Assembly (NCBI GenBank): GCA_964410095.1
Contig: CAYPFL010000007.1
Span: 10,952-74,951, forward strand
Direction: 5' to 3'
Length of the DNA stretch: 64,000 nucleotides
From: an uncultured Thermodesulfatator sp.
GTDB taxonomy: Bacteria; Desulfobacterota; Thermodesulfobacteria; Thermodesulfobacteriales; Thermodesulfobacteriaceae
The notes under the pieces were generated by a model. The model did no database searches and was not told where the DNA came from. It saw nothing but the letters and a program-made list of their open reading frames with translations. How positions within the stretch are numbered: the stretch's first letter is position 1; each line of letters opens with the position of its first letter. The position numbers and the translations under genes were made by a program. This document shows, piece by piece, positions 6,483 through 13,544 of the stretch.

Positions 6483-7237
6483 TAAAAAATTTCCTTTAGA
6501 AAATCGAGAGTTTCGTAATTCTTGAATCTTTCTCTTAATTCATTAAGAAGTTCTCTAAAAGTAAGGTTATCTTTATTAACAGGTGTTCTATACAAAGCTC
6601 CCACCCAGCGTCTTAATTCATCTTCTTCAGGTAAAATAGGTAATTCATCTACATCTATATTATTTAAAAGTGTTTGAGGAACTTCATCTGCGAGTCCTTT
6701 TTTATAAAGATTTAAAAATTTTAAAAGATCAAAAAGACTCCCATAAACACCACCAATGTCTATATTTTCAACAAGTTGCATAGAAATAGTTCCTATTTGA
6801 AATAAAAATGGAGGAATTTGAGCAGAACCTTTTTGACAGGGTTCAGTTGAAACCATAATTCTACACATAAGAGGTCTTTTAGGATAAATTTTACATAAAT
6901 TCTCATCTGTCAAAAAAGGACAACTTCCGAGATTTTCAAAAGGTTCTTCTACAGGAGGTTCAACTCCTTCCATATAACAAAGTATTGTCTGGTTATGAGT
7001 AATTTTTGGTCTGGGATAATTCTCCAAATTTTCTAAAGTTTTCAAGTCTTCTTCTTTTAAATCTTCTAATATATAAAAAGCTTCTATAGAAGTAGCATAA
7101 ATTTTTTGAGTACAACACAAACTACAACCAGGTTTACATGCAAGTTCGTATTTAGAAAATGTCTTATCGAGATATTCGTAAAGTGTATTTAAAAGCTTAA
7201 TTTTTTCTTCTATTGCATAATTAAGAACAACGTTAAT
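6482..7237 (-). CDS. YkgJ/FliB-family cysteine-cluster protein, probable ATT start
   Basis: The frame is open 5' of the track's TTG (7120), giving ...ELACKPGCSLCC plus CPFL...CxIYxxRPxxCR. No ATG/GTG/TTG lies between the upstream stop and the Cys motif. AGGAGG sits 9 nt before ATT at 7237. Confidence 0.8.
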   Translation of the reverse strand: MNVVLNYAIEEKIKLLNTLYEYLDKTFSKYELACKPGCSLCCTQKIYATSIEAFYILEDLKEEDLKTLENLENYPRPKITHNQTILCYMEGVEPPVEEPFENLGSCPFLTDENLCKIYPKRPLMCRIMVSTEPCQKGSAQIPPFLFQIGTISMQLVENIDIGGVYGSLFDLLKFLNLYKKGLADEVPQTLLNNIDVDELPILPEEDELRRWVGALYRTPVNKDNLTFRELLNELRERFKNYETLDFLKEIF

Positions 7238-7274
7238 CCTTAAATCCCTCCTTTTATTTTTAAAATCTTAAAAA

Positions 7275-7303
7275 AGTTTAGAAAGTTTTTTATAAGGTGT
7301 CAA
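7275..7303 (-). promoter_or_regulatory. sigma70 promoter of the ykgJ-pyrK-pyrD-hslO operon
   Basis: TTGACA(7303-7298)-17 nt-TAAACT(7280-7275). Confidence 0.75.
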
Positions 7304-7395
7304 GTAGGCTTCTTATTTTTAGTTTTTTCAAATGTTTCTTACTCATTTATATATCACCGCTACATAAAATTAATTAATGATACTAAATGAATTGA

Positions 7396-7560
7396 CTTTT
7401 CGTTTTTGTTATATATTTTTTAAATATTATACCTACGGTAAGACACGAATTCGGTCATATGATTAGTCTATCACAACATCATGAAAATTGCGTCATATCT
7501 TATAGATGCGACCGTGAAAAATTTTGTTTAAAGTGTAAACAAAAGATAAAAGAATTATAG
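7396..7560 (+). pseudogene. C-terminal remnant of an archaemetzincin-like Zn metallopeptidase
   Basis: Start-less frame ...TVRHEFGHMISLSQHHENCVISY...FCLKCKQKIKEL* with a HExGH zinc motif and a terminal FCxxC. Confidence 0.55.
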
Positions 7561-7662
7561 GGCTTATGAGCTTATACACTAAGTTCAATGCTTTGCTCTT
7601 TAGATGGCCTCATCAAAATTCTTTGCTTCGCTTAAATTTCAGACACTTGCGAAATGTTAAAT
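7561..7662 (+). mobile_element. degenerate attC-like site 1
   Basis: Begins directly after the TAG at 7560, contains GCTTCGCT and ends CGAAAT-GTTAAAT (GTTRRRY at 7656-7662). The last 27 nt match the 10227-10253 site at 18/27 positions without gaps. Confidence 0.55.
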
Positions 7663-7698
7663 AGCCAGGCTTCATAAGGTATGAGAAAATGAAAAATT

Positions 7699-8199
7699 AT
7701 GAACATTAGACCTGAAGTAAAAATAAGAATCGATAAAAAAGGTCTCTTACGATTTATTCCTTGGGGGTTTGATATTTTAAATTTGAAATTTTTGATAACC
7801 GCAGAAAATAATTCTGAGCAAAATATCTTATTACGGTTATGGTATATTCGGATGCTATCAGGAGAAATTGGAGGGGTTGGTGCAGGTAAAGATTTTATAG
7901 ATATTTTTCTTAAAGCCAAAGAGAAGAAAAGCGAGACTGTGTCCTTGAAATTAGAAAGCGGTTTATATAGTTTTGAAGCCGAAGTCCCTCACAAAAGAGG
8001 TTCTTGGGGAGGATATGAAATAAAAGGGTTAAAAACCTTTAGAGTATTAGATAGTAGAAGTCTTATAGTTGGAGTCTTAATAGGAACGTTAATTAGCATA
8101 CTCTTAGCATACTATAAAACGCTGTCCGAAATCGTCCAAAGCTTTTTAAAAGAAACATTGTCAGTAATATTGAATATTGTAATATGTCGAAAACAATGA
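7699..8199 (+). CDS. hypothetical protein with a C-terminal hydrophobic helix
   Basis: 166-aa ORF starting 36 nt after the GTTRRRY site; hydrophobic segment LIVGVLIGTLISILLAYY; no family recognised. Confidence 0.55.
   Translation: MNIRPEVKIRIDKKGLLRFIPWGFDILNLKFLITAENNSEQNILLRLWYIRMLSGEIGGVGAGKDFIDIFLKAKEKKSETVSLKLESGLYSFEAEVPHKRGSWGGYEIKGLKTFRVLDSRSLIVGVLIGTLISILLAYYKTLSEIVQSFLKETLSVILNIVICRKQ
8111..8185 (+). mobile_element. possible heavily decayed attC-like site before the methyltransferase gene
   Basis: GCTGTCCGAAATCG...AACATTGTCAG could be decayed inverted arms, and GTAATAT near 8179 resembles GTTRRRY. Weak. Confidence 0.2.
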
Positions 8200-9434
8200 A
8201 CAACTGGGCAAAAATAATACTTGGCGATAGTCGAAAAATGATAGAAGTTGAAAATAATAGTATAGATTTAGTTGTTACATCCCCCCCTTATTGGCATATT
8301 AAAGACTATGAAGTCGAAGGACAAATTGGATATGGGCAAACTTTACATGAATATCTGAAAGATCTTTATAGAGTTTGGAAAGAATGTTATAGAATTCTTA
8401 AACCGGGAAGAAGACTATGTATAAATATAGGTGATCAATTTGCTCGTTCAATAATTTATGGAAGATATAAGGTTATACCTCTACATGCTGAATTTATAGC
8501 TCAGTGTGAAGATATAGGTTTTGATTATATGGGCTCTATTATATGGCAGAAGAAAACCACAATGAATACTACTGGGGGAGCAAATGTAATGGGGTCATAT
8601 CCTTATCCACCAAATGGTATGGTTGAAATTGATTACGAATTTATACTTATTTTCAAAAAACCGGGTAAAGGTAAAAAAGTTCCAAAGGAAGTTAAAGAAA
8701 AATCAAAGCTAACCAAAAAAGAATGGAAAGAATATTTTTATGGACATTGGTATTTTGGTGGAGCAAGACAGATAGAACACGAAGCAATGTTTCCTGAAGA
8801 ACTTCCAAAAAGGTTAATAAAAATGTATACTTTTGTTGGAGATACAGTTCTAGATCCCTTTTTAGGAAGTGGAACAACCGTAAAAGCAGCTTTAAATTTA
8901 AACAGAAATGCCATTGGTTATGAAATAAATGAAAAATTCCTAGATATTATCAAAGAAAAACTTAGTTTAAAACAGGGTTTACTCCAGTTTAGTCAAAACA
9001 TACAAATAATAAAACGAAAAATAACCATAGAAGTTGATGAGATAAATTATGTGCCAAGAATTAAAAATGCTAAACCTAAAATAGATCCTAAGAAATTTAA
9101 TTTTAAGAATGATCGACTTTACAGAGTAGTGGATATTGTAAATGAACATACAATTAAATTGGATACAGGTTTGTTTGTTAAATTTCTGGGTGTGAAAGTA
9201 ACTAAAAAAGAAGAAGTTTTAAAATATTTAAAAGAATATATTTTGAAAAAAGAAGTCTTTCTACGGTTTGATAATGATGCTGTTTTGAATGAATTTACTA
9301 TTGAAGCATATGTTTATTTAAAAAATAAAATCTTTGTAAATGCTTACCTAATCAAGTCAGGTATGGCTGAAGCAGACAAAACAAAAAGTTATAAATACAA
9401 AAGTAAATTTTTAGAGTTAGAGGGAAAGGCATAA
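8184..9434 (+). CDS. N4-cytosine/N6-adenine DNA methyltransferase (beta-class order) with a C-terminal SNase-like domain
   Basis: DLVVTSPPY precedes DPFLGSGTT. The last ~100 aa follow the staphylococcal-nuclease pattern (..AYVY....FVNAYLIKSGMA). Confidence 0.88.
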   Translation: MSKTMNNWAKIILGDSRKMIEVENNSIDLVVTSPPYWHIKDYEVEGQIGYGQTLHEYLKDLYRVWKECYRILKPGRRLCINIGDQFARSIIYGRYKVIPLHAEFIAQCEDIGFDYMGSIIWQKKTTMNTTGGANVMGSYPYPPNGMVEIDYEFILIFKKPGKGKKVPKEVKEKSKLTKKEWKEYFYGHWYFGGARQIEHEAMFPEELPKRLIKMYTFVGDTVLDPFLGSGTTVKAALNLNRNAIGYEINEKFLDIIKEKLSLKQGLLQFSQNIQIIKRKITIEVDEINYVPRIKNAKPKIDPKKFNFKNDRLYRVVDIVNEHTIKLDTGLFVKFLGVKVTKKEEVLKYLKEYILKKEVFLRFDNDAVLNEFTIEAYVYLKNKIFVNAYLIKSGMAEADKTKSYKYKSKFLELEGKA

Positions 9435-9436
9435 AT

Positions 9437-10105
9437 ATGAGTAAAGAATGGATATTAAACATAGCTACAAATAGATGGGGATTGAATAAGAAAAACAGCG
9501 TAGGTCCAGTATCACAATGGATTCGTGAATGTACTCCCAAAACAATTAAAGATTGGGAAGAGTTCTATTACAAAAAACTTGCAGAATTTTTAAAATCTAA
9601 AGGTATTAAACTGCCACCAGAGGAATATATAAAAGACCTTGGAAGGAAACTCTATATAAAAATTACAGAAGTTATTCAAGCAGAAATAGAAGAAGTGACT
9701 GAGGAAGATTGTATCCAGTATATCTATAATCTTGTAATTAACCGAACTTATGATGGATATTTAACCGAAATAAAAACAATATATGGAAAATTACAGCACG
9801 ATTTAGGAGTAGAAATAAAACCTGCACCGGACGAATGGGATAGATTATACAATGTTGATTTTTATATCCAAATTGACGATAAATATATTGGGTTACAAAT
9901 AAAACCTATTACCTATGAACAGACACCAGAAATTTATAGATGGAAAGAATGGCTTGAAAGAACTCACAAGAAATTTGAGAAAGATCATGGTGGGAAAGTA
10001 TTCATTGTATTTTCAATTAAAAAAGATAACAGAAAAGAAATTTATAATATAGAAGTTATAGAACAAATAAAAGAGGAAATTAAAAGGCTGAAAGGAGAAA
10101 ATTGA
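9437..10105 (+). CDS. MjaI-family type II restriction endonuclease
   Basis: VGPVSQWIREC...WEEFYY N-terminus, NRTYDGY, NVDFYIQ...GLQIKP (PD-D/QxK); starts 2 nt after the MTase stop. Confidence 0.8.
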   Translation: MSKEWILNIATNRWGLNKKNSVGPVSQWIRECTPKTIKDWEEFYYKKLAEFLKSKGIKLPPEEYIKDLGRKLYIKITEVIQAEIEEVTEEDCIQYIYNLVINRTYDGYLTEIKTIYGKLQHDLGVEIKPAPDEWDRLYNVDFYIQIDDKYIGLQIKPITYEQTPEIYRWKEWLERTHKKFEKDHGGKVFIVFSIKKDNRKEIYNIEVIEQIKEEIKRLKGEN

Positions 10106-10166
10106 AACAGAGGGAAGTTTTAAAGCGATTTTTTATTTGATAATGCCCATTTCTGTGTTTACATAC

Positions 10167-10253
10167 TCGATAGCAAATAAATATGCGGGCTTTTATGTTT
10201 GTCTCAAAATTTGCTTTTATGGGGAAACTTCACATATTCTCGGAATGTTAGGT
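10167..10253 (+). mobile_element. attC-like site 2
   Basis: Left arm AATATGCG(10180-87) is complementary to CACATATT(10231-38) with one mismatch. Ends CGGAAT-GTTAGGT (GTTRRRY at 10247-53); SD and ATG of the next gene follow within 30 nt. Confidence 0.65.
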
Positions 10254-10281
10254 GATATTATACGCTATAGGGAGACAAAGG

Positions 10282-11562
10282 ATGGAAATTGACCCAAGAA
10301 AAAATGGTATTCATTCATTAGCAGAAGCTCTTCAAGCTTTTAAAAAGTTTCACGAAAATCCAAATGATGTTTTTGCTCTAAAAGACGCGATCTTACGAAC
10401 GCATCACGCTTTAGAAACTCTGTTTAAACATATTTTATATCAAATAAATCCTGTATTGTTAGTTAGTGAAAAAATCAAAGTTAAAGAAGTCATAGAAGGA
10501 TACAATAAATGGTTTAGGAGAGAAATAGCAACACCTTTGGATGAGTTATGGACTGTACCTCTTGAAGATACTATTAAACGTCTTCAAGAGCTTAAATTGC
10601 TAAGGGGGTTAGATGAAAGTGAGCGTGAAATTTTTCTCAAAGCTATAAGTGAATTAACGCAATATAGAAATAGTCTTCAACATTTAGGATTAAAAACCGA
10701 TCCTAATAGAATAGGGAGAATTTTGGGAATTATAATACCCAGAGCAATAGAAGTATTAGAGGAAACAGATTCTTATTTATTAAAAATAATTGGTTTGCCA
10801 TCTATATTTGCGTTCCAATCTATAAGTATAATGGATGACTTATGTAAAATTCTACCAGAAGCCCCAAATATAATTGACCTTCTTAGATATAATTACGATA
10901 ATCTAATTAGAGAAGCTATTCAGTTTTTCAAGACGCGTACATTCAATGATCAAATTTTAAAACTGAAGATAATAGATCATGGTAAAGTAGGAGCTCCGCC
11001 ATATATGCCTAACTTAATGGTAGAGGGGTTTCTTGATCTTAATTTTGATGTACATGATCTTATAGGATTAAGACTTGAAGGTGAAGATTCCTATAAGGCT
11101 GAAGTACATATAAGTCGACCCCTTTTTAAAGAAGATAAAAGATTTCCAAATCATGGGATTGCAGAGGGATCGCTAGAGTTTAAAGCATATATAAAGGTTA
11201 GTAAAGCTAAAGGATTTCTAATCTTACCCAACGCTGAAGAAAAGATAGCAGTATTGAGGGATTTGACCGTTATAATTAAAGCTAAACTTGATTATAAGGC
11301 CGAAGCTTTAATGACAGATTGGCATTACGATTGTATTAGAATTCTTCAAGCAAAAGGGGAATTAAATGTTAATCTCACTTTAGTTCCGAAAGGCTATAAA
11401 AGTAAAAAAATTGAATTAATTGGACGGTATCAATCAAACTTAACCGAAGAAAATGCACCTTTTAGACTTCATGTGTTCTTTGAACCCGATGGCTCTTTAA
11501 AGGATGGGCCAATACATTTAGAATGGATTATGAATACCAAAGGAGATGTTGAATTCATGTAA
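10282..11562 (+). CDS. HEPN-domain protein with an unrecognised beta-rich C-terminal domain
   Basis: N-terminal helical NGIHSL...AILRTHHALETLFKHIL pattern and RX4H motif (RNSLQH). ATG at 10282 follows GGGAGA. Confidence 0.7.
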   Translation: MEIDPRKNGIHSLAEALQAFKKFHENPNDVFALKDAILRTHHALETLFKHILYQINPVLLVSEKIKVKEVIEGYNKWFRREIATPLDELWTVPLEDTIKRLQELKLLRGLDESEREIFLKAISELTQYRNSLQHLGLKTDPNRIGRILGIIIPRAIEVLEETDSYLLKIIGLPSIFAFQSISIMDDLCKILPEAPNIIDLLRYNYDNLIREAIQFFKTRTFNDQILKLKIIDHGKVGAPPYMPNLMVEGFLDLNFDVHDLIGLRLEGEDSYKAEVHISRPLFKEDKRFPNHGIAEGSLEFKAYIKVSKAKGFLILPNAEEKIAVLRDLTVIIKAKLDYKAEALMTDWHYDCIRILQAKGELNVNLTLVPKGYKSKKIELIGRYQSNLTEENAPFRLHVFFEPDGSLKDGPIHLEWIMNTKGDVEFM

Positions 11563-11576
11563 AGGTCTATGTAATG

Positions 11577-11638
11577 TTGTTAATATAGATAATATACCTG
11601 ACTTCGTATGTCCGCATATTATTTTCCGAAATTGACGC
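11577..11638 (+). mobile_element. degenerate attC-like site 3
   Basis: 14 nt after the HEPN stop. AGATAATATAC(11587-97) pairs with GCATATTATTT(11614-24), contains CGCATATT as in site 2, and is followed by CCGAAAT. The terminal GTT is lost. Confidence 0.45.
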
Positions 11639-11707
11639 GTTGCTTCAAAAGGAATAGTTTGTAATAATTAAAAAATCAGAGAAAAAAATAAAACTTAATA
11701 AAAAACT

Positions 11708-11936
11708 ATGAAAATAAAAGGTATTGATAAATTTCAAGAAAAAGTCTCGATATTATCCGGTAAGAAGATATTTTTGTTACCTTTGTATGTTATTTTTTAT
11801 TCTTTCACTCTGTATCTTGATTTTAATAAGATTTTATTCACTATCTAAGGAGAAAAAAAACTTATCGAAAAATTTGAATCTTTGTATAAAGAATATAAAA
11901 AAAGTTCCTACATTTTCGTCAAACCTAATAAATTAA
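11708..11936 (+). pseudogene. remnant of an isoprenylcysteine/PEMT-family membrane methyltransferase
   Basis: The ATG-11708 frame gives a hydrophobic stretch, an in-frame TAA (11846-48), then GEKKLIEKFESLYKEYKK. A shift in an A-run gives VPTF, matching the family's EExxLxxxFGxxYxxYxxxVP C-terminus. Confidence 0.55.
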
Positions 11937-11990
11937 AGAGCTTTTTTAAATTTTCTGATAAAAGAAAAAGCTAAAAATATTTTCAATTTT

Positions 11991-13544
11991 TTATCTTTTA
12001 AAAATTTTTATTAATTTTTCAAAAAATATATAGGTCTCTCTAATGCCCGTGATTTTACAAGATAAAATATAAGCTATTCCTCCAGCAGGAATTGCTAAAA
12101 TCAAAATCAAAAATTTATTATGAATACAAATAAGAACTAATTTACATACTAAAATAAGAATTAAAGATGCAAAGAAGAGAGCAAATAGGCTTTTTATTAA
12201 AAATAAAAAATCAGGAGTTTTTAAAAAATAAAATGCTATACTTAATAAAAAAATAGCCTGAGCTCCTAAGGAAAGACTTGTTCCAAGTGCAACAGCATTT
12301 ATTCCTAATTTTTTTATTGTTAAAAGAATAATTGTTACATTTGTTATTACAGCAACTACACTTCCTAAAGCAGGAATAATGGTTTTTCCAAGCGAATAAA
12401 ATAAAGGAACTGAGGTTTTAGAAAGCCCATAAAATGGAAGTCCTATAGCTAAAATTTGTAAAAGCAAAGCAGTATGTATTGTATCAAAAGGAGAAAATTT
12501 TCCTCTTTCAAAAAGAACACTTATTATAGGTTTAGAAAGCATATATAATCCAATAGCAGAAGGAATGGATACACTTAAAGAAACAATAAGTGCTCTTAAA
12601 TAAGTATCTTTTGCTAAATCCAAATCTTTTCTTGCAATTTGCCGAGAAAGTTCTGGTAAGAGTGCTTGGGAAAGACCTACACCAAAAAGACCCAAAGGAA
12701 CATACATAATTCTAAAAGCATAAGAATACCAAGAAACTGCTCCTTCCCCGCATGATGTTGCAAAAAAAGTATTTATAAAAATATTTATTTGAACTACCGA
12801 AAGCCCAAATACAATAGGAAATATTAGCCTTAATACTTCTTTAAAATTAGGATCTTTAAAATTGGGACAAAAAGAAAATCTAAATCCTTTTTTTCTTGCT
12901 AAAGGATATTGAAAAAAGAATTGAGAAAATCCTCCTAAACTAACTCCTACTGCCATCGCATAAATAGGACGAATATTTATTTTAATTAATAAAAAGTATC
13001 CAATTACTCCGATTAAAACGGAGACGAGGTTAAAAAATGCAGAAGATACAGCCGGAATAAAGAAAATTTTTAAAGAATTTAACATACCTGCTATAACTGC
13101 TGAAAGACTTATAAAAAGAAGAAAAGGCATCATAATTTGTGTAAGATGAACAGTTAATTGAAATTTATCAGGATCTTTACTAAAATCTGGAGCAATAAGA
13201 GAAACTATATATGGAGCAAATATAATTCCTAAGGATACAATAATACTGAGAATTATCAAAAAATTGGAAATTAAAATTTGAGAAATTTTAAAACTATACG
13301 AAAGTCCTTTTTTTTCTAAATTAGCACTAAAAACTTTTACAAATGCAGAACCCAGAGCTCCCTCGGCAAAAAGATCCCTTAAAAGATTAGGGATACGATA
13401 TCCTACTACAAAGGCATCCATACTTTTTCCAGCACCAAAAAAATATGCTAAAACTTGCTCCCTTATAAGACCAAGGATACGGCTTATGAAAACCGCTATA
13501 GTAACTGAGCCAGCGAATTTAGTAACACTTTCTATTTTTTTCAA
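11991..13544 (-). CDS. murJ: lipid II flippase MurJ (MviN)
   Basis: SRILGLIRE, RIPNLLRDLFAEGAL, multi-TM. Confidence 0.95.
   Translation of the reverse strand: MKKIESVTKFAGSVTIAVFISRILGLIREQVLAYFFGAGKSMDAFVVGYRIPNLLRDLFAEGALGSAFVKVFSANLEKKGLSYSFKISQILISNFLIILSIIVSLGIIFAPYIVSLIAPDFSKDPDKFQLTVHLTQIMMPFLLFISLSAVIAGMLNSLKIFFIPAVSSAFFNLVSVLIGVIGYFLLIKINIRPIYAMAVGVSLGGFSQFFFQYPLARKKGFRFSFCPNFKDPNFKEVLRLIFPIVFGLSVVQINIFINTFFATSCGEGAVSWYSYAFRIMYVPLGLFGVGLSQALLPELSRQIARKDLDLAKDTYLRALIVSLSVSIPSAIGLYMLSKPIISVLFERGKFSPFDTIHTALLLQILAIGLPFYGLSKTSVPLFYSLGKTIIPALGSVVAVITNVTIILLTIKKLGINAVALGTSLSLGAQAIFLLSIAFYFLKTPDFLFLIKSLFALFFASLILILVCKLVLICIHNKFLILILAIPAGGIAYILSCKITGIRETYIFFEKLIKIFKR

What the first reader, a model, noticed from the sequence alone, without database searches (positions are those of the whole stretch)
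7396..11936. Eroding integron-like cassette array (CALIN-type) carrying defence genes
Seen: five co-oriented, functionally unrelated units interrupt housekeeping DNA. They are separated by related hairpin elements placed 3' of stop codons. Two end in a perfect GTTRRRY (GTTAAAT 7656-62; GTTAGGT 10247-53) after CG[A/G]AAT, and their last 27 nt align 18/27 without gaps. A third (11577-11638) keeps the arms but has lost GTT. The next gene starts 28-36 nt after each intact core. Known: this layout is that of integron gene cassettes with attC sites, and cassette arrays are enriched in RM and anti-phage genes. Inference: this is a decaying chromosomal cassette array with an atypical attC family and no integrase in this window. 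The terminal cassettes are already pseudogenes while the RM pair and HEPN gene remain intact, which suggests selection on the defence cargo.
Basis: partly seen in the sequence, partly recalled or inferred. Interest (0 to 1): 0.85.

Follow-up and report, generated by a model that had tools for sequence, protein, structure and literature searches.

The report
Decayed integron cassette array, defence cargo
A 4.7-kb insert between two housekeeping genes of a hydrothermal-vent Thermodesulfobacterium-like bacterium is the worn-out remains of an integron gene-cassette array that delivered a restriction-modification system and a HEPN-type putative defence gene; it is a known kind of element, caught in an unusually well-documented state of decay.

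Summary
About 14 related Thermodesulfobacteriaceae genomes have murJ and the ykgJ-like gene adjacent. The window carries about 4.7 kb of co-oriented foreign genes between them.

Relatives of the 426-aa HEPN gene and of the MjaI-type RM pair sit elsewhere in true cassette arrays, each followed by a canonical attC with covarying R and L boxes. Two covariance models built only from those outside attCs each gave one significant hit in the 64-kb window: 10160-10253 (38.4 bits, E 6e-6; stricter model 32.8 bits, E 1e-5).

- The first element (7567-7662) is weakly supported (nhmmer E 0.011).
- The third (11563-11640) is supported mainly by positional homology to the attC after orthologous genes.
- A fourth cassette boundary lies at 8121, inside "orf166".

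All four are relics. The inverse cores are broken, the bottom strands fold no better than shuffles, and the sequence has drifted from GC to AT. No tyrosine recombinase was found in the window, and the sister-strain variant is an ordinary 1018-bp deletion.

The RM genes look constrained (33 synonymous against 14 nonsynonymous codon changes). The HEPN gene is truncated in the sister strain.

This is a known kind of element (CALIN-like, with defence cassettes) and a new member of it. Interest is moderate.

The parts
7393..7458 (+). Left edge of the insert, upstream of the first small ORF. It holds a promoter-like site at 7392-7419. The boundary is provisional.
   Evidence: The native ykgJ promoter (TTGACA at 7288-7293 on the - strand, with RBS and ATT start) is conserved with relatives, so foreign DNA starts after about 7305. 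Metagenome assemblies branch exactly at 7392 in X2 and X3. No attC signal is found here.
7459..7560 (+). 33-aa Cys-rich ORF, the presumed ORF or remnant of cassette A. Function unknown.
   Evidence: ORF list. No Pfam, NCBIfam or PADLOC match. No homolog in the held loci.
It starts right after the stop codon. R' is GTTAAAT at 7656-7662, and R'' has decayed to GGCTTAT.
   Evidence: nhmmer with 6 orthologous-type attCs: 7607-7662, E 0.011, the best of only two hits in the whole window. The covariance model gives 9.0 bits, the best in 7380-7700 but not significant window-wide. Smith-Waterman against family attCs gives p about 0.004. The bottom strand does not fold (z 0.07).
7699..8199 (+). orf166, the gene of cassette B. 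It is a 138-140-aa family protein with a C-terminal TM helix. The last ~28 codons read through the cassette boundary into the RM leader and overlap the MTase start.
   Evidence: There is one close homolog (93%). The distant relatives P0201 and P0202 are 138-140 aa and match residues 4-136 only. Versus the sister strain there are 4 synonymous and 10 nonsynonymous changes.
8104..8127 (+). Boundary between cassettes B and C. A possible last remnant of an attC L' arm (TTAGCATACTATAAAAC) is followed by the decayed core GCTGTCC (8121-8127, GTT changed to GCT).
   Evidence: Alignment A3: window 8121 onward (GCTGTCCGAAATCGTCCAAAGC...) is homologous to the cassette leader that follows intact attC ends in L083 (CAAAAT|GTTGTCCGAAATC) and L084. 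The covariance model gives only 6.5 bits.
8128..8183 (+). Conserved 5' leader of the RM cassette, with a promoter-like site at 8158-8185.
   Evidence: The leader is conserved in L083, L084 and partly L040.
8184..9434 (+). N4/N6 DNA methyltransferase (Type II), with a weak C-terminal SNase-like match.
   Evidence: PF01555, 1.2e-51. PADLOC MTase_II, 1e-130. 24 synonymous and 11 nonsynonymous changes versus the sister strain.
9437..10105 (+). MjaI-family Type II restriction endonuclease. CTAG specificity is inferred from the family.
   Evidence: PF09568, 3.3e-51. 4402 homologs. 9 synonymous and 3 nonsynonymous changes versus the sister strain.
R' is GTTAGGT at 10247-10253, and R'' has decayed to GATAGCA.
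   Evidence: Covariance model R1: 38.4 bits, E 5.6e-6. Stricter R2: 32.8 bits, E 1e-5. Each is the only significant hit in 64 kb on both strands. nhmmer gives E 6.8e-4 in 0.9 Mb. Against the consensus there are 28 GC-to-AT and 9 AT-to-GC changes. There is no hairpin.
10254..11562 (+). Cassette D: a conserved leader plus the 426-aa gene (ATG at 10282). The protein has an N-terminal HEPN domain (RNSLQH) and a C-terminal all-beta domain.
   Evidence: The leader GTTAGG.GA.ATTA...GG..A ATG is conserved in homologs. R129 and H134 are invariant in 68 homologs. PADLOC PDC-S64, 3.9e-8. Model pLDDT is 88; the HEPN toxin 7bxo_G matches with probability 0.97 and Csm6 with 0.89.
Its 5' half is orthologous to the attC that follows the gene elsewhere. 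The loop is shortened and the R' core is lost.
   Evidence: GTCTATGTAATGTTG-TTAAT...GACTTCG aligns from the stop codon with GTCTATGTAACGTCGCCTAAC...GACTTCG of L041, L044 and L031. The statistics are weak on their own (nhmmer E 3.9; Smith-Waterman p 0.056; covariance model 3.7 bits).
11641..11990 (.). AT-rich right end of the insert, running up to the murJ stop codon. It holds only short ORFs (46 and 70 aa) with no homologs and varies between strains. Whether it is a dead cassette is undecided.
   Evidence: No homologs and no attC signal. Metagenome contigs diverge at 11848-11947, where one has 629 other letters.

Best explanation
The interval from about 7393 to 11640 (possibly to 11990) is a relic of an integron gene-cassette array that now lies, without an integrase, in the murJ / ykgJ-like intergenic spacer of a Thermodesulfobacterium-like vent bacterium.

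It holds four recognisable cassettes, all on the + strand:
- A: a 33-aa ORF plus attC relic 1.
- B: orf166.
- C: MTase plus MjaI-type REase plus attC relic 2.
- D: the HEPN / all-beta gene plus attC relic 3.

Shown:
- The insert is foreign to the locus.
- Cassettes C and D, with their leaders, occur elsewhere as true cassettes bounded by canonical attCs of one family.
- The window's junction sequences are homologous to those attCs at the expected places and in the expected orientation.

Inferred:
- The cassettes were originally moved by an integron integrase that cuts at G|TT of folded attC bottom strands. They arrived either by insertion at a secondary genomic site or as a piece of an existing array.
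- After the integrase was lost or never arrived, the attCs were no longer needed. They drifted towards the host's AT-rich composition until they could no longer fold, so the cassettes are now fixed.
- The RM pair is kept by selection (an addictive and defensive module) and is probably expressed from a promoter in its own leader.
- The other genes are decaying: orf166 reads through its boundary and looks unconstrained, and the HEPN gene is deleted in the sister strain.
For: Synteny:
- murJ and the ykgJ-like gene are adjacent in about 14 relatives, none of which has the island genes.

Cassette D:
- In L031-L034 and L041-L047 the 58-85%-identical homologs are followed directly by GTCGCCTAAC-AGGT-GCATATCCGA...TCGGATATGC-CCagAAC|GTTRRRY.
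- They are preceded by ...GGAAC|GTTAGGYGA.ATTACA, and the cassette's own 5' end is the complement of its R''.
- 29%-identical marine homologs are also flanked by attCs.

Cassette C:
- In L084 an attC (24 bits) lies just upstream of the MTase, and a second begins about 50 nt after the REase stop.
- L083 starts with an attC 3' end followed by the same leader as window 8121-8183.

The attC family is real:
- 20 sites give 75.9% paired cells against 22-39% in slid controls, and 9 pairs show compensatory changes.
- The sites form arrays of up to 8-9 co-oriented sites (L044).

Window scans:
- R1 gives 38.4 bits, E 5.6e-6. R2 gives 32.8 bits, E 1e-5. Each is the only significant hit.
- The narrower profile finds only relic 1 (E 0.011) and relic 3 (E 3.9) in 128 kb searched.

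Decay:
- There is no RYYYAAC and no hairpin.
- Relic 2 has 28 GC-to-AT against 9 AT-to-GC changes relative to the consensus.
- The sister strain's 1018-bp deletion is not at a core.

No integrase:
- Three tyrosine-recombinase probes found nothing in 64 kb.

Constraint:
- The RM genes show 33 synonymous against 14 nonsynonymous changes, and orf166 shows 4 against 10.
Against: - Only one of the four junctions passes a window-wide significance test. Relics 1 and 3 and the 8121 boundary rest on weaker statistics plus position.
- No integron integrase was found next to any member of this attC family in the held loci, which are mostly short contigs. The link to IntI therefore rests on the canonical attC architecture, not on co-occurrence.
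- The outer edges of the insert (7392/7393 and 11640-11990) show no G|TT-type junction, so the mode of arrival is unknown.
- The same RM pair and HEPN gene also occur without attCs (L036, L040, L087). These genes therefore also travel by other routes.
- IntegronFinder's own attC model could not be run.
Confidence: 0.8

Rival explanations
1. This is an ordinary genomic or defence island acquired by a route unrelated to integrons. On this view the shared flanking sequences are only conserved UTRs that travel with the RM and HEPN genes.
For: - The RM pair (81% nt identity) and the HEPN gene (79% aa identity) occur in archaeal chromosomes with their leaders but without attCs (L040, L036).
- In L087 the HEPN homolog sits in an integrase-bearing island beside a HEPN_AbiV gene.
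- The outer junctions of the insert are not G|TT-like.
Against: - Model R2 was built from 16 attCs that do not precede HEPN homologs, and it was trimmed at the R' core. It still hits 10160-10253 at E 1e-5.
- Relic 1 matches the internal, gene-independent part of the attC (TCCAAATTCCTCGCTCCGCT...).
- The junctions fall exactly where attC ends fall in true arrays.
Confidence: 0.1
2. This is a still-functional CALIN whose cassettes can be excised and recaptured if an integron integrase is supplied in trans.
For: - Two perfect GTTRRRY cores remain.
- CALIN cassettes have been proposed to be mobilisable in trans (PMC4889954).
- Metagenome assemblies branch at the left edge of the insert.
Against: - No RYYYAAC partner exists for either core.
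- In the model alignment of relic 2, 3 of 7 R-box pairs and further L-box pairs are broken.
- The bottom strands fold at -7.6 to -16 kcal/mol with z about 0, against -25 to -29 for intact sites.
- The only strain difference inside the array is a microhomology-type deletion away from the cores.
- No joint at a core was seen in four metagenomes.
Confidence: 0.07
3. The resemblance is due to chance in AT-rich intergenic DNA, and there is no attC ancestry.
For: - The 26-nt repeat ranks 7th among chance-level repeats.
- The 13-mer motif is not enriched.
- GTTRRRY occurs 50 times in the window.
- The folds are no better than shuffles.
- Rfam gives nothing.
Against: - Independent models give E 1e-5 to 6e-6 for relic 2, and no comparable hit anywhere else in 128 kb.
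- The only two hits of a second profile fall on the other two predicted elements.
- Orthologous genes elsewhere carry intact attCs at the same positions.
Confidence: 0.03

Closest known systems
[quoted passage not shown] 2016, PMC4889954) and SALIN (Loot et al., 10.1101/2022.09.11.507474)
   Same: - Co-oriented cassettes bounded by attC-derived sites.
- No intI within reach, and no intI pseudogene.
- Small (4-5 units).
- Located in a chromosome, away from any recognisable integron platform.
   Different: - The attCs are too degraded to fold or to keep the inverse core.
- Only one of them passes a covariance-model threshold, so a standard run might call it a single site or nothing.
- One cassette (the RM pair) is about 2.1 kb and holds two genes.
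Defence-system cassettes of sedentary chromosomal integrons (10.1101/2024.07.02.601686; earlier reports of RM and TA cassettes)
   Same: - The cargo is a Type II RM pair and a HEPN-domain protein.
- Related arrays (L032) carry MNT/HEPN toxin-antitoxin cassettes.
- The RM cassette leader holds a promoter-like site, so it may carry its own promoter.
   Different: - The host is a thermophilic Thermodesulfobacteriaceae member, not Vibrio or Xanthomonas.
- The array is dead rather than a working 'biobank'.
- Defence activity was not tested.
Cross-domain integron cassettes and archaeal integrons (Ghaly et al. 2022, PMC9668308)
   Same: Near-identical cassette genes (79-81% identity) are found in archaeal chromosomal contexts (L036, L040) and in bacterial ones. 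Some still carry the cassette's 5' leader and core.
   Different: No archaeal integron platform or intI was seen here. In the archaeal copies the attC is missing. The direction and mechanism of transfer are unknown.
MjaI (CTAG) Type II restriction-modification systems
   Same: The REase belongs to PF09568 and is paired with an N4/N6 MTase. CTAG is almost absent from the host DNA.
   Different: - Specificity is inferred from the family, not measured.
- CTAG depletion is lineage-wide and not attributable to this copy.
- The system is delivered here as an integron cassette.

Membership tests
integron attC site | A 3' core R' = GTTRRRY, at which the cassette boundary (G|TT) lies | tested here: met
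   Relic 1 has GTTAAAT (7656-7662) and relic 2 has GTTAGGT (10247-10253). The feature is not met by relic 3 (ATTGACG) or by the 8121 boundary (GCTGTCC).
integron attC site | A 5' inverse core R'' = RYYYAAC, 50-150 nt upstream and complementary to R' | tested here: not met
   The strict finder recovers intact sites in L031, L044, L045 and L046 but none in the window. The model alignment puts GATAGCA (relic 2), GGCTTAT (relic 1) and GTTAAT (relic 3) at that position.
integron attC site | The bottom strand folds into an imperfect hairpin (R box, spacer, L box) | tested here: not met
   Window relics fold at -7.6 to -16 kcal/mol with z about 0. Intact family members fold at -25 to -29 kcal/mol as near-complete hairpins.
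integron attC site | Match to a covariance model of bona fide attC sites | tested here: met
   With family-specific models built here, relic 2 gives 38.4 and 32.8 bits (E 6e-6 and 1e-5). Relic 1 (9 bits), relic 3 (3.7 bits) and the 8121 boundary (6.5 bits) are inconclusive. The IntegronFinder model is not available, and Rfam gave no hit.
integron attC site (the outside reference family itself) | R and L boxes pair and covary, and the sites form co-oriented arrays, one after each ORF | tested here: met
   75.9% of cells pair against 22-39% in slid controls, and 9 pairs show compensatory changes. L044 has 8-9 sites spaced 0.8-1.6 kb, and L032 has 4-5 cassettes including TA pairs.
integron attC site | Recombined by an IntI-type tyrosine recombinase (co-occurrence or assay) | not testable with these tools
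   No IntI-like ORF was found in the window or in the attC-bearing loci, which are mostly contigs under 10 kb. Collection scans were exhausted.
CALIN (IntegronFinder definition) | At least two attC sites detected by the model, clustered within 4 kb | tested here: inconclusive
   Only one site passes a window-wide threshold. The others are recognisable only with orthology and position. The definition is from PMC4889954.
CALIN (IntegronFinder definition) | No integron integrase nearby | tested here: met
   tblastn with IntI1 and two other tyrosine recombinases found nothing at E<1 in 64 kb. Only about 210 bp lies between the ykgJ start and the first ORF.
Type II RM, MjaI family | An RE_MjaI endonuclease next to a DNA methyltransferase | tested here: met
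   PF09568, 3.3e-51, and PF01555, 1.2e-51. The genes are 2 nt apart.
Type II RM, MjaI family | CTAG cleavage and protective methylation | not testable with these tools
   There is only indirect evidence. CTAG occurs 3 times in 64 kb against about 105-169 expected, and relatives without the island are equally depleted.
HEPN superfamily | Rx4-6H motif in an all-helical domain | tested here: met
   R129-N-S-L-Q-H134 is invariant in 68 homologs. Residues 5-216 are helical in the model (pLDDT 88). Foldseek matches the HEPN toxin 7bxo_G (probability 0.97, TM 0.69) and Csm6 (probability 0.89), but the E-values are weak. No Pfam HEPN hit was found.

The most novel reading that the evidence does not exclude
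The thermophile attC family defined here may be a live shuttle that moves compact defence modules (the MjaI-type RM pair and the HEPN / all-beta gene) between bacteria and archaea at hydrothermal vents. Integrase-less relics like this one would then be the usual end state: cassettes become fixed chromosomal defence genes, and the dead attC is even absorbed into coding sequence, as in the orf166 read-through. That would make decayed cassette junctions a general, so far overlooked, signature of the origin of small defence islands in genomes that standard tools score as integron-free.
Probability: 0.3. Interest if true: 0.65.

Novelty: new member of a known kind. Interest (0 to 1): 0.5.

Why it matters
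- It gives a worked example of what happens to integron cassettes after the recombination machinery is gone. The attC sites lose their inverse core and their fold through AT-biased drift, while a selfish and defensive RM module stays under purifying selection and its neighbours decay.
- Cassette ancestry can still be proved when structure-based criteria fail, by comparing with orthologous cassettes elsewhere.
- It adds a canonical attC family from vent and hot-spring thermophiles. The cassettes of this family also turn up in archaeal chromosomes, which bears on cross-domain transfer of defence genes.
- It does not reveal a new kind of element.

Tried and rejected
- **Rfam scan of 6.5-12.5 kb at E up to 10:** nothing relevant.
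- **Folding of the three elements on both strands:** no signal. At that point I favoured chance or a plain island, until the flanks of homologs were compared.
- **Strict RYYYAAC...GTTRRRY plus hairpin finder:** it finds true sites in other loci but none in the window, and it gives false positives inside coding DNA.
- **RNAalifold on the top strand:** it recovered only the L-box stem, so I supplied the R and L structure by hand and checked it.
- **tblastx of both ends of the insert against all held loci:** nothing.
- **Looking for an 'empty site' allele in metagenomes:**
  - A reported 7392-to-11676 joint turned out to have other sequence between its sides.
  - It marks a branch point, not a clean excision.
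  - The right end is too AT-rich and variable to resolve.
- **Foldseek of the whole HEPN protein:** the C-terminal all-beta domain only gave low-TM matches to beta-barrels and gasdermin pores, which I do not interpret.
- **CTAG avoidance as evidence that this RM copy is active:** rejected, because relatives without the island are equally depleted.
- **Context of the orf166 relatives (L089-L091):** archaeal, with no attC of this family.

Full report
**What is in the window**

The DNA is about 29% G+C. On the - strand lie pyrD, pyrK and a ykgJ-like CxxCxxCC gene (6482 to about 7222), and further on murJ (11991-13544). Between the ykgJ-like gene and murJ everything is on the + strand:
- a 33-aa Cys-rich ORF (7459-7560);
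- orf166 (7699-8199);
- an N4/N6 DNA methyltransferase (8184-9434, PF01555);
- an MjaI-family restriction endonuclease (9437-10105, PF09568);
- a 426-aa protein (10282-11562);
- about 430 bp of AT-rich DNA with only short ORFs.

The best murJ relatives are Thermodesulfobacterium and related Thermodesulfobacteriaceae at 72-75% protein identity. The sequence is held almost completely by one hydrothermal-vent metagenome run.

**Is it an insertion?**

Yes. In about 14 related genomes murJ is followed within 130-300 bp by the ykgJ-like gene, and none of them encodes any of the five + strand genes. In those relatives the order is murJ stop codon, 10-25 nt, a TTGACA promoter, an RBS, and a conserved ATT start of the ykgJ-like gene. 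The window keeps that promoter at 7288-7293 on the - strand. Everything from about 7305 to 11990 is therefore extra.

The same spacer carries other inserts elsewhere: a 110-nt palindromic element in L004-L006, 1.3 kb in L015 and 0.57 kb in L021. G+C content does not mark the island, and no tRNA gene adjoins it.

The stated motifs are there, and the 27-nt tails match 18/27. Taken inside the window alone they are unimpressive:
- The repeat ranks 7th among chance-level two-copy repeats.
- The 13-mer derived from the two copies is not enriched.
- GTTRRRY occurs 50 times in the window.
- Rfam finds nothing.
- Neither strand of any element folds better than shuffled sequence.
- No RYYYAAC lies upstream of either core.

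On this evidence I would have rejected the attC idea.

**What changed the picture**

The 426-aa protein has 79 unannotated homologs. I compared the DNA around the close ones.
- **3' side.** In L031-L034 and L041-L047 the stop codon is followed at once by GTCGCCTAAC-AGGT-GCATATCCGA...TCGGATATGC-CCagAAC|GTTRRRY. This has a textbook R''/L''...L'/R' layout.
- **5' side.** The gene is preceded by the end of another such site and by a conserved leader (...GGAAC|GTTAGGYGA.ATTACA...GGTGGTAAATG ATG).
- **Circular-cassette logic.** The cassette's own 5' end is the reverse complement of its R'' extension (GTTAGGCGAC against GTCGCCTAAC). That is what a circular cassette recombined at G|TT requires.
- **Array context.** L032 is a small array whose other cassettes are MNT/HEPN toxin-antitoxin pairs. 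L044 is a 9.4-kb contig with 8-9 such sites, all in one orientation and spaced 0.8-1.6 kb.
- **Distant relatives.** Even 29%-identical marine relatives are flanked by GTTAGGG upstream and GCCCTAACAAAC... downstream.

The gene family is therefore a typical integron-cassette family. The window's 'CGGAAT|GTTAGGT' corresponds to the L'-R' junction of this attC family.

**Formal test**

I aligned 20 intact sites from other loci, none from the window. The proposed R and L helices pair in 75.9% of cells, against 22-39% when one side is slid. Nine pairs show compensatory changes.

| Model | Built from | Result in the whole window (both strands, filters off) |
|---|---|---|
| Covariance model R1 | 20 intact sites | 10160-10253/9 (+): 38.4 bits, E 5.6e-6; next best 11.8 bits |
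| Covariance model R2 | 16 sites, none preceding a homolog of the 426-aa gene, trimmed at the R' heptamer | 10160-10253 (+): 32.8 bits, E 1e-5; next best 14.7 bits (E 0.38) |
| nhmmer profile | the six attCs that follow orthologs of the 426-aa gene | only two hits: 7607-7662 (E 0.011) and 11560-11606 (E 3.9) |

R2 was built to exclude gene-linked homology. The third starts at the stop codon, exactly as in the orthologs.

Smith-Waterman scores against shuffles give p of about 0.004 (relic 1), 0.006 (relic 2) and 0.056 (relic 3). So one junction is firmly attC-derived, one is moderately supported, and one is supported mainly by positional orthology.

**The RM pair as a cassette, and a fourth boundary**

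- In L084 an attC of the same family (24 bits) lies just upstream of the methyltransferase. Another begins about 50 nt after the endonuclease stop.
- L083 begins with an attC 3' end, CAAAAT|GTTGTCCGAAATC, followed by a 65-nt leader.
- The window has the same leader from 8121 (GCTGTCCGAAATCGTCC...), with the core mutated from GTT to GCT.
- This boundary lies inside the 3' end of 'orf166'. The distant relatives of orf166 are 138-140 aa and match only residues 4-136. The last ~28 codons are therefore a read-through across the dead boundary into the RM leader.

The array thus has at least four cassettes: A (7393?-7656), B (7657-8120), C (8121-10247) and D (10248 to about 11640). The right-hand 350 bp could not be assigned.

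**State of the array**

It is dead as a recombination substrate.
- The inverse cores read GGCTTAT, GATAGCA and GTTAAT instead of RYYYAAC.
- In the model alignment of relic 2, several R-box and L-box pairs are broken.
- Bottom strands fold at -7.6 to -16 kcal/mol (z about 0), against -25 to -29 for intact sites.
- Relic 2 differs from the family consensus by 28 GC-to-AT changes against 9 in the other direction. Its G+C is 33% against 53%.
- The cassette genes are also slightly more AT-rich than their relatives.
- Three tyrosine-recombinase probes found nothing in 64 kb.

A sister strain (L039, 98% identical) has the same insert at the same place. It carries a 1018-bp deletion (10209-11225) that removes the GTTAGGT core and two thirds of the 426-aa gene. 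This allele is seen in three further metagenomes, and its ends are not at a core. No joint at any core was seen.

**Selection on the cargo**

Codon changes between the window and L039:

| Gene | Synonymous | Nonsynonymous |
|---|---|---|
| Methyltransferase | 24 | 11 |
| MjaI endonuclease | 9 | 3 |
| orf166 | 4 | 10 |
| 426-aa gene (remnant in L039) | 4 | 9 |

Non-coding parts are 4-8% divergent. The numbers are small. They fit purifying selection on the RM pair only.

The RM leader contains a promoter-like site just before the methyltransferase start (8158-8185). This is a consensus match, not proof.

**The cargo**

- **RM pair.** It is a Type II MjaI-family system, and CTAG specificity is inferred from the family. 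CTAG occurs only three times in the window, against 105-169 expected, and all three sites are inside the island. Relatives without the island are equally depleted, so this says nothing about this particular copy.
- **The 426-aa protein.**
  - It has an invariant R129-x4-H134 motif across 68 homologs.
  - It gives a weak PADLOC PDC-S64 hit.
  - The AlphaFold model has pLDDT 88.
  - The helical N-terminal half resembles HEPN toxins (7bxo_G, probability 0.97; Csm6, probability 0.89).
  - The all-beta C-terminal half has no convincing match.
  - In an archaeal island the family sits beside a HEPN_AbiV gene. A defence or abortive-infection role is plausible but untested.

**How it got there**

This is unresolved. 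Three routes would fit (PMC4889954; 10.1101/2022.09.11.507474):
- integrase-mediated insertion at a secondary genomic site, followed by attC x attC additions;
- loss of the platform from a complete integron;
- import of a fragment of an array.

The outer edges show no G|TT junction, and assemblies branch at 7392.

**Comparison with known systems**

The closest description is a CALIN-type cassette cluster carrying defence genes. Both the element type and the cargo class are known (PMC4889954; 10.1101/2024.07.02.601686). Formally it may fail the CALIN criterion of two or more detectable attC sites.

Three aspects may be new:
- the host lineage (a full-text search found no paper describing integrons in Thermodesulfobacteria);
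- the degree of decay, together with proof of ancestry through orthologous cassettes;
- the presence of the same cassettes, with leader but without attC, in archaeal chromosomes (L036, L040), which fits the cross-domain picture of PMC9668308.

**Verdict**

The element is a new member of a known kind, and interest is moderate.

Noticed in passing
whole window; CTAG at 8850, 8940 and 11173 only: CTAG is almost absent: 3 sites in 64 kb against 105-169 expected, and none in the 59.7 kb outside the island. Related Thermodesulfobacteriaceae loci without the island are equally depleted (0-2 sites per 12-21 kb in most). The avoidance is therefore lineage-wide, and the island is the only CTAG-bearing DNA here.
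   Followed up: partly
window 7120-7245 (- strand) and L001-L009, L016, L018: The ykgJ-like CxxCxxCC gene has no in-frame ATG, GTG or TTG at its conserved N-terminus. In the window and in all relatives an ATT codon sits 7-9 nt after a GGAGG RBS (ATT AAY ACN GTT...), which suggests a conserved ATT start. The ORF list therefore truncates the gene at TTG 7120.
   Followed up: partly
L004 2420-2560, L005 11530-11650, L006 1950-2080: A palindromic element of about 110 nt (TATAACCATTT...CCACTTCGGAAGTGG...AAATGGTTATA) occupies the same murJ / ykgJ-like spacer in three relatives. L015 has 1.3 kb and L021 has 0.57 kb of other DNA there. The spacer is a hot spot for insertions.
   Followed up: no
window 10209-11225; L039 7683; runs X2, X3, X5: A 1018-bp deletion allele truncates the HEPN gene and removes the GTTAGGT core. 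It is present in a 98%-identical sister strain and in at least three metagenomes.
   Followed up: yes
L036 7400-8780; L040 1160-3150; L087 10001-11287: The same HEPN gene (79% aa identity) and the same RM pair (81% nt identity) lie in archaeal chromosomal contexts (Rpb7/Spt4/S24e/S27e; diphthamide synthase; TFIIB). They keep the cassette's 5' leader but have no attC downstream. This points to cross-domain spread of these cassettes.
   Followed up: partly
window 9222-9434 (MTase residues 347-416): The methyltransferase carries a C-terminal extension with weak similarity to staphylococcal-nuclease (SNase/OB) domains (PF00565, E 8e-4, just below cutoff; NCBIfam NucI, E 1e-3).
   Followed up: no
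whole window: GTTRRRY is under-represented: 50 matches against 113 +/- 10 expected from dinucleotide shuffles. The cause is unknown.
   Followed up: no
L089 1067-1104 (= L090 1347-1384, L091 919-956): Upstream of the archaeal orf166 relative lies a perfect 11-bp palindrome, CTTCCGATAAC-ATTCAAAT-GTTATCGGAAG. Its arms contain RYYYAAC/GTTRRRY-like cores. It scores 16.5 bits with the attC model through the R box alone (E 0.2). It could be a minimal attC-like site or just a terminator.
   Followed up: no
window 11848-11947; run X2: In the sister-strain contig the 98 bp between 11848 and 11947 are replaced by 629 other letters. Other metagenomes diverge at 11848 too. The murJ-proximal end of the insert is hypervariable.
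   Followed up: partly
window 10282-11562, residues 220-426: The C-terminal half of the HEPN protein is a confidently modelled all-beta domain of long antiparallel strands, with no convincing PDB match. Only low-TM hits to outer-membrane barrels and gasdermin pores were found.
   Followed up: partly
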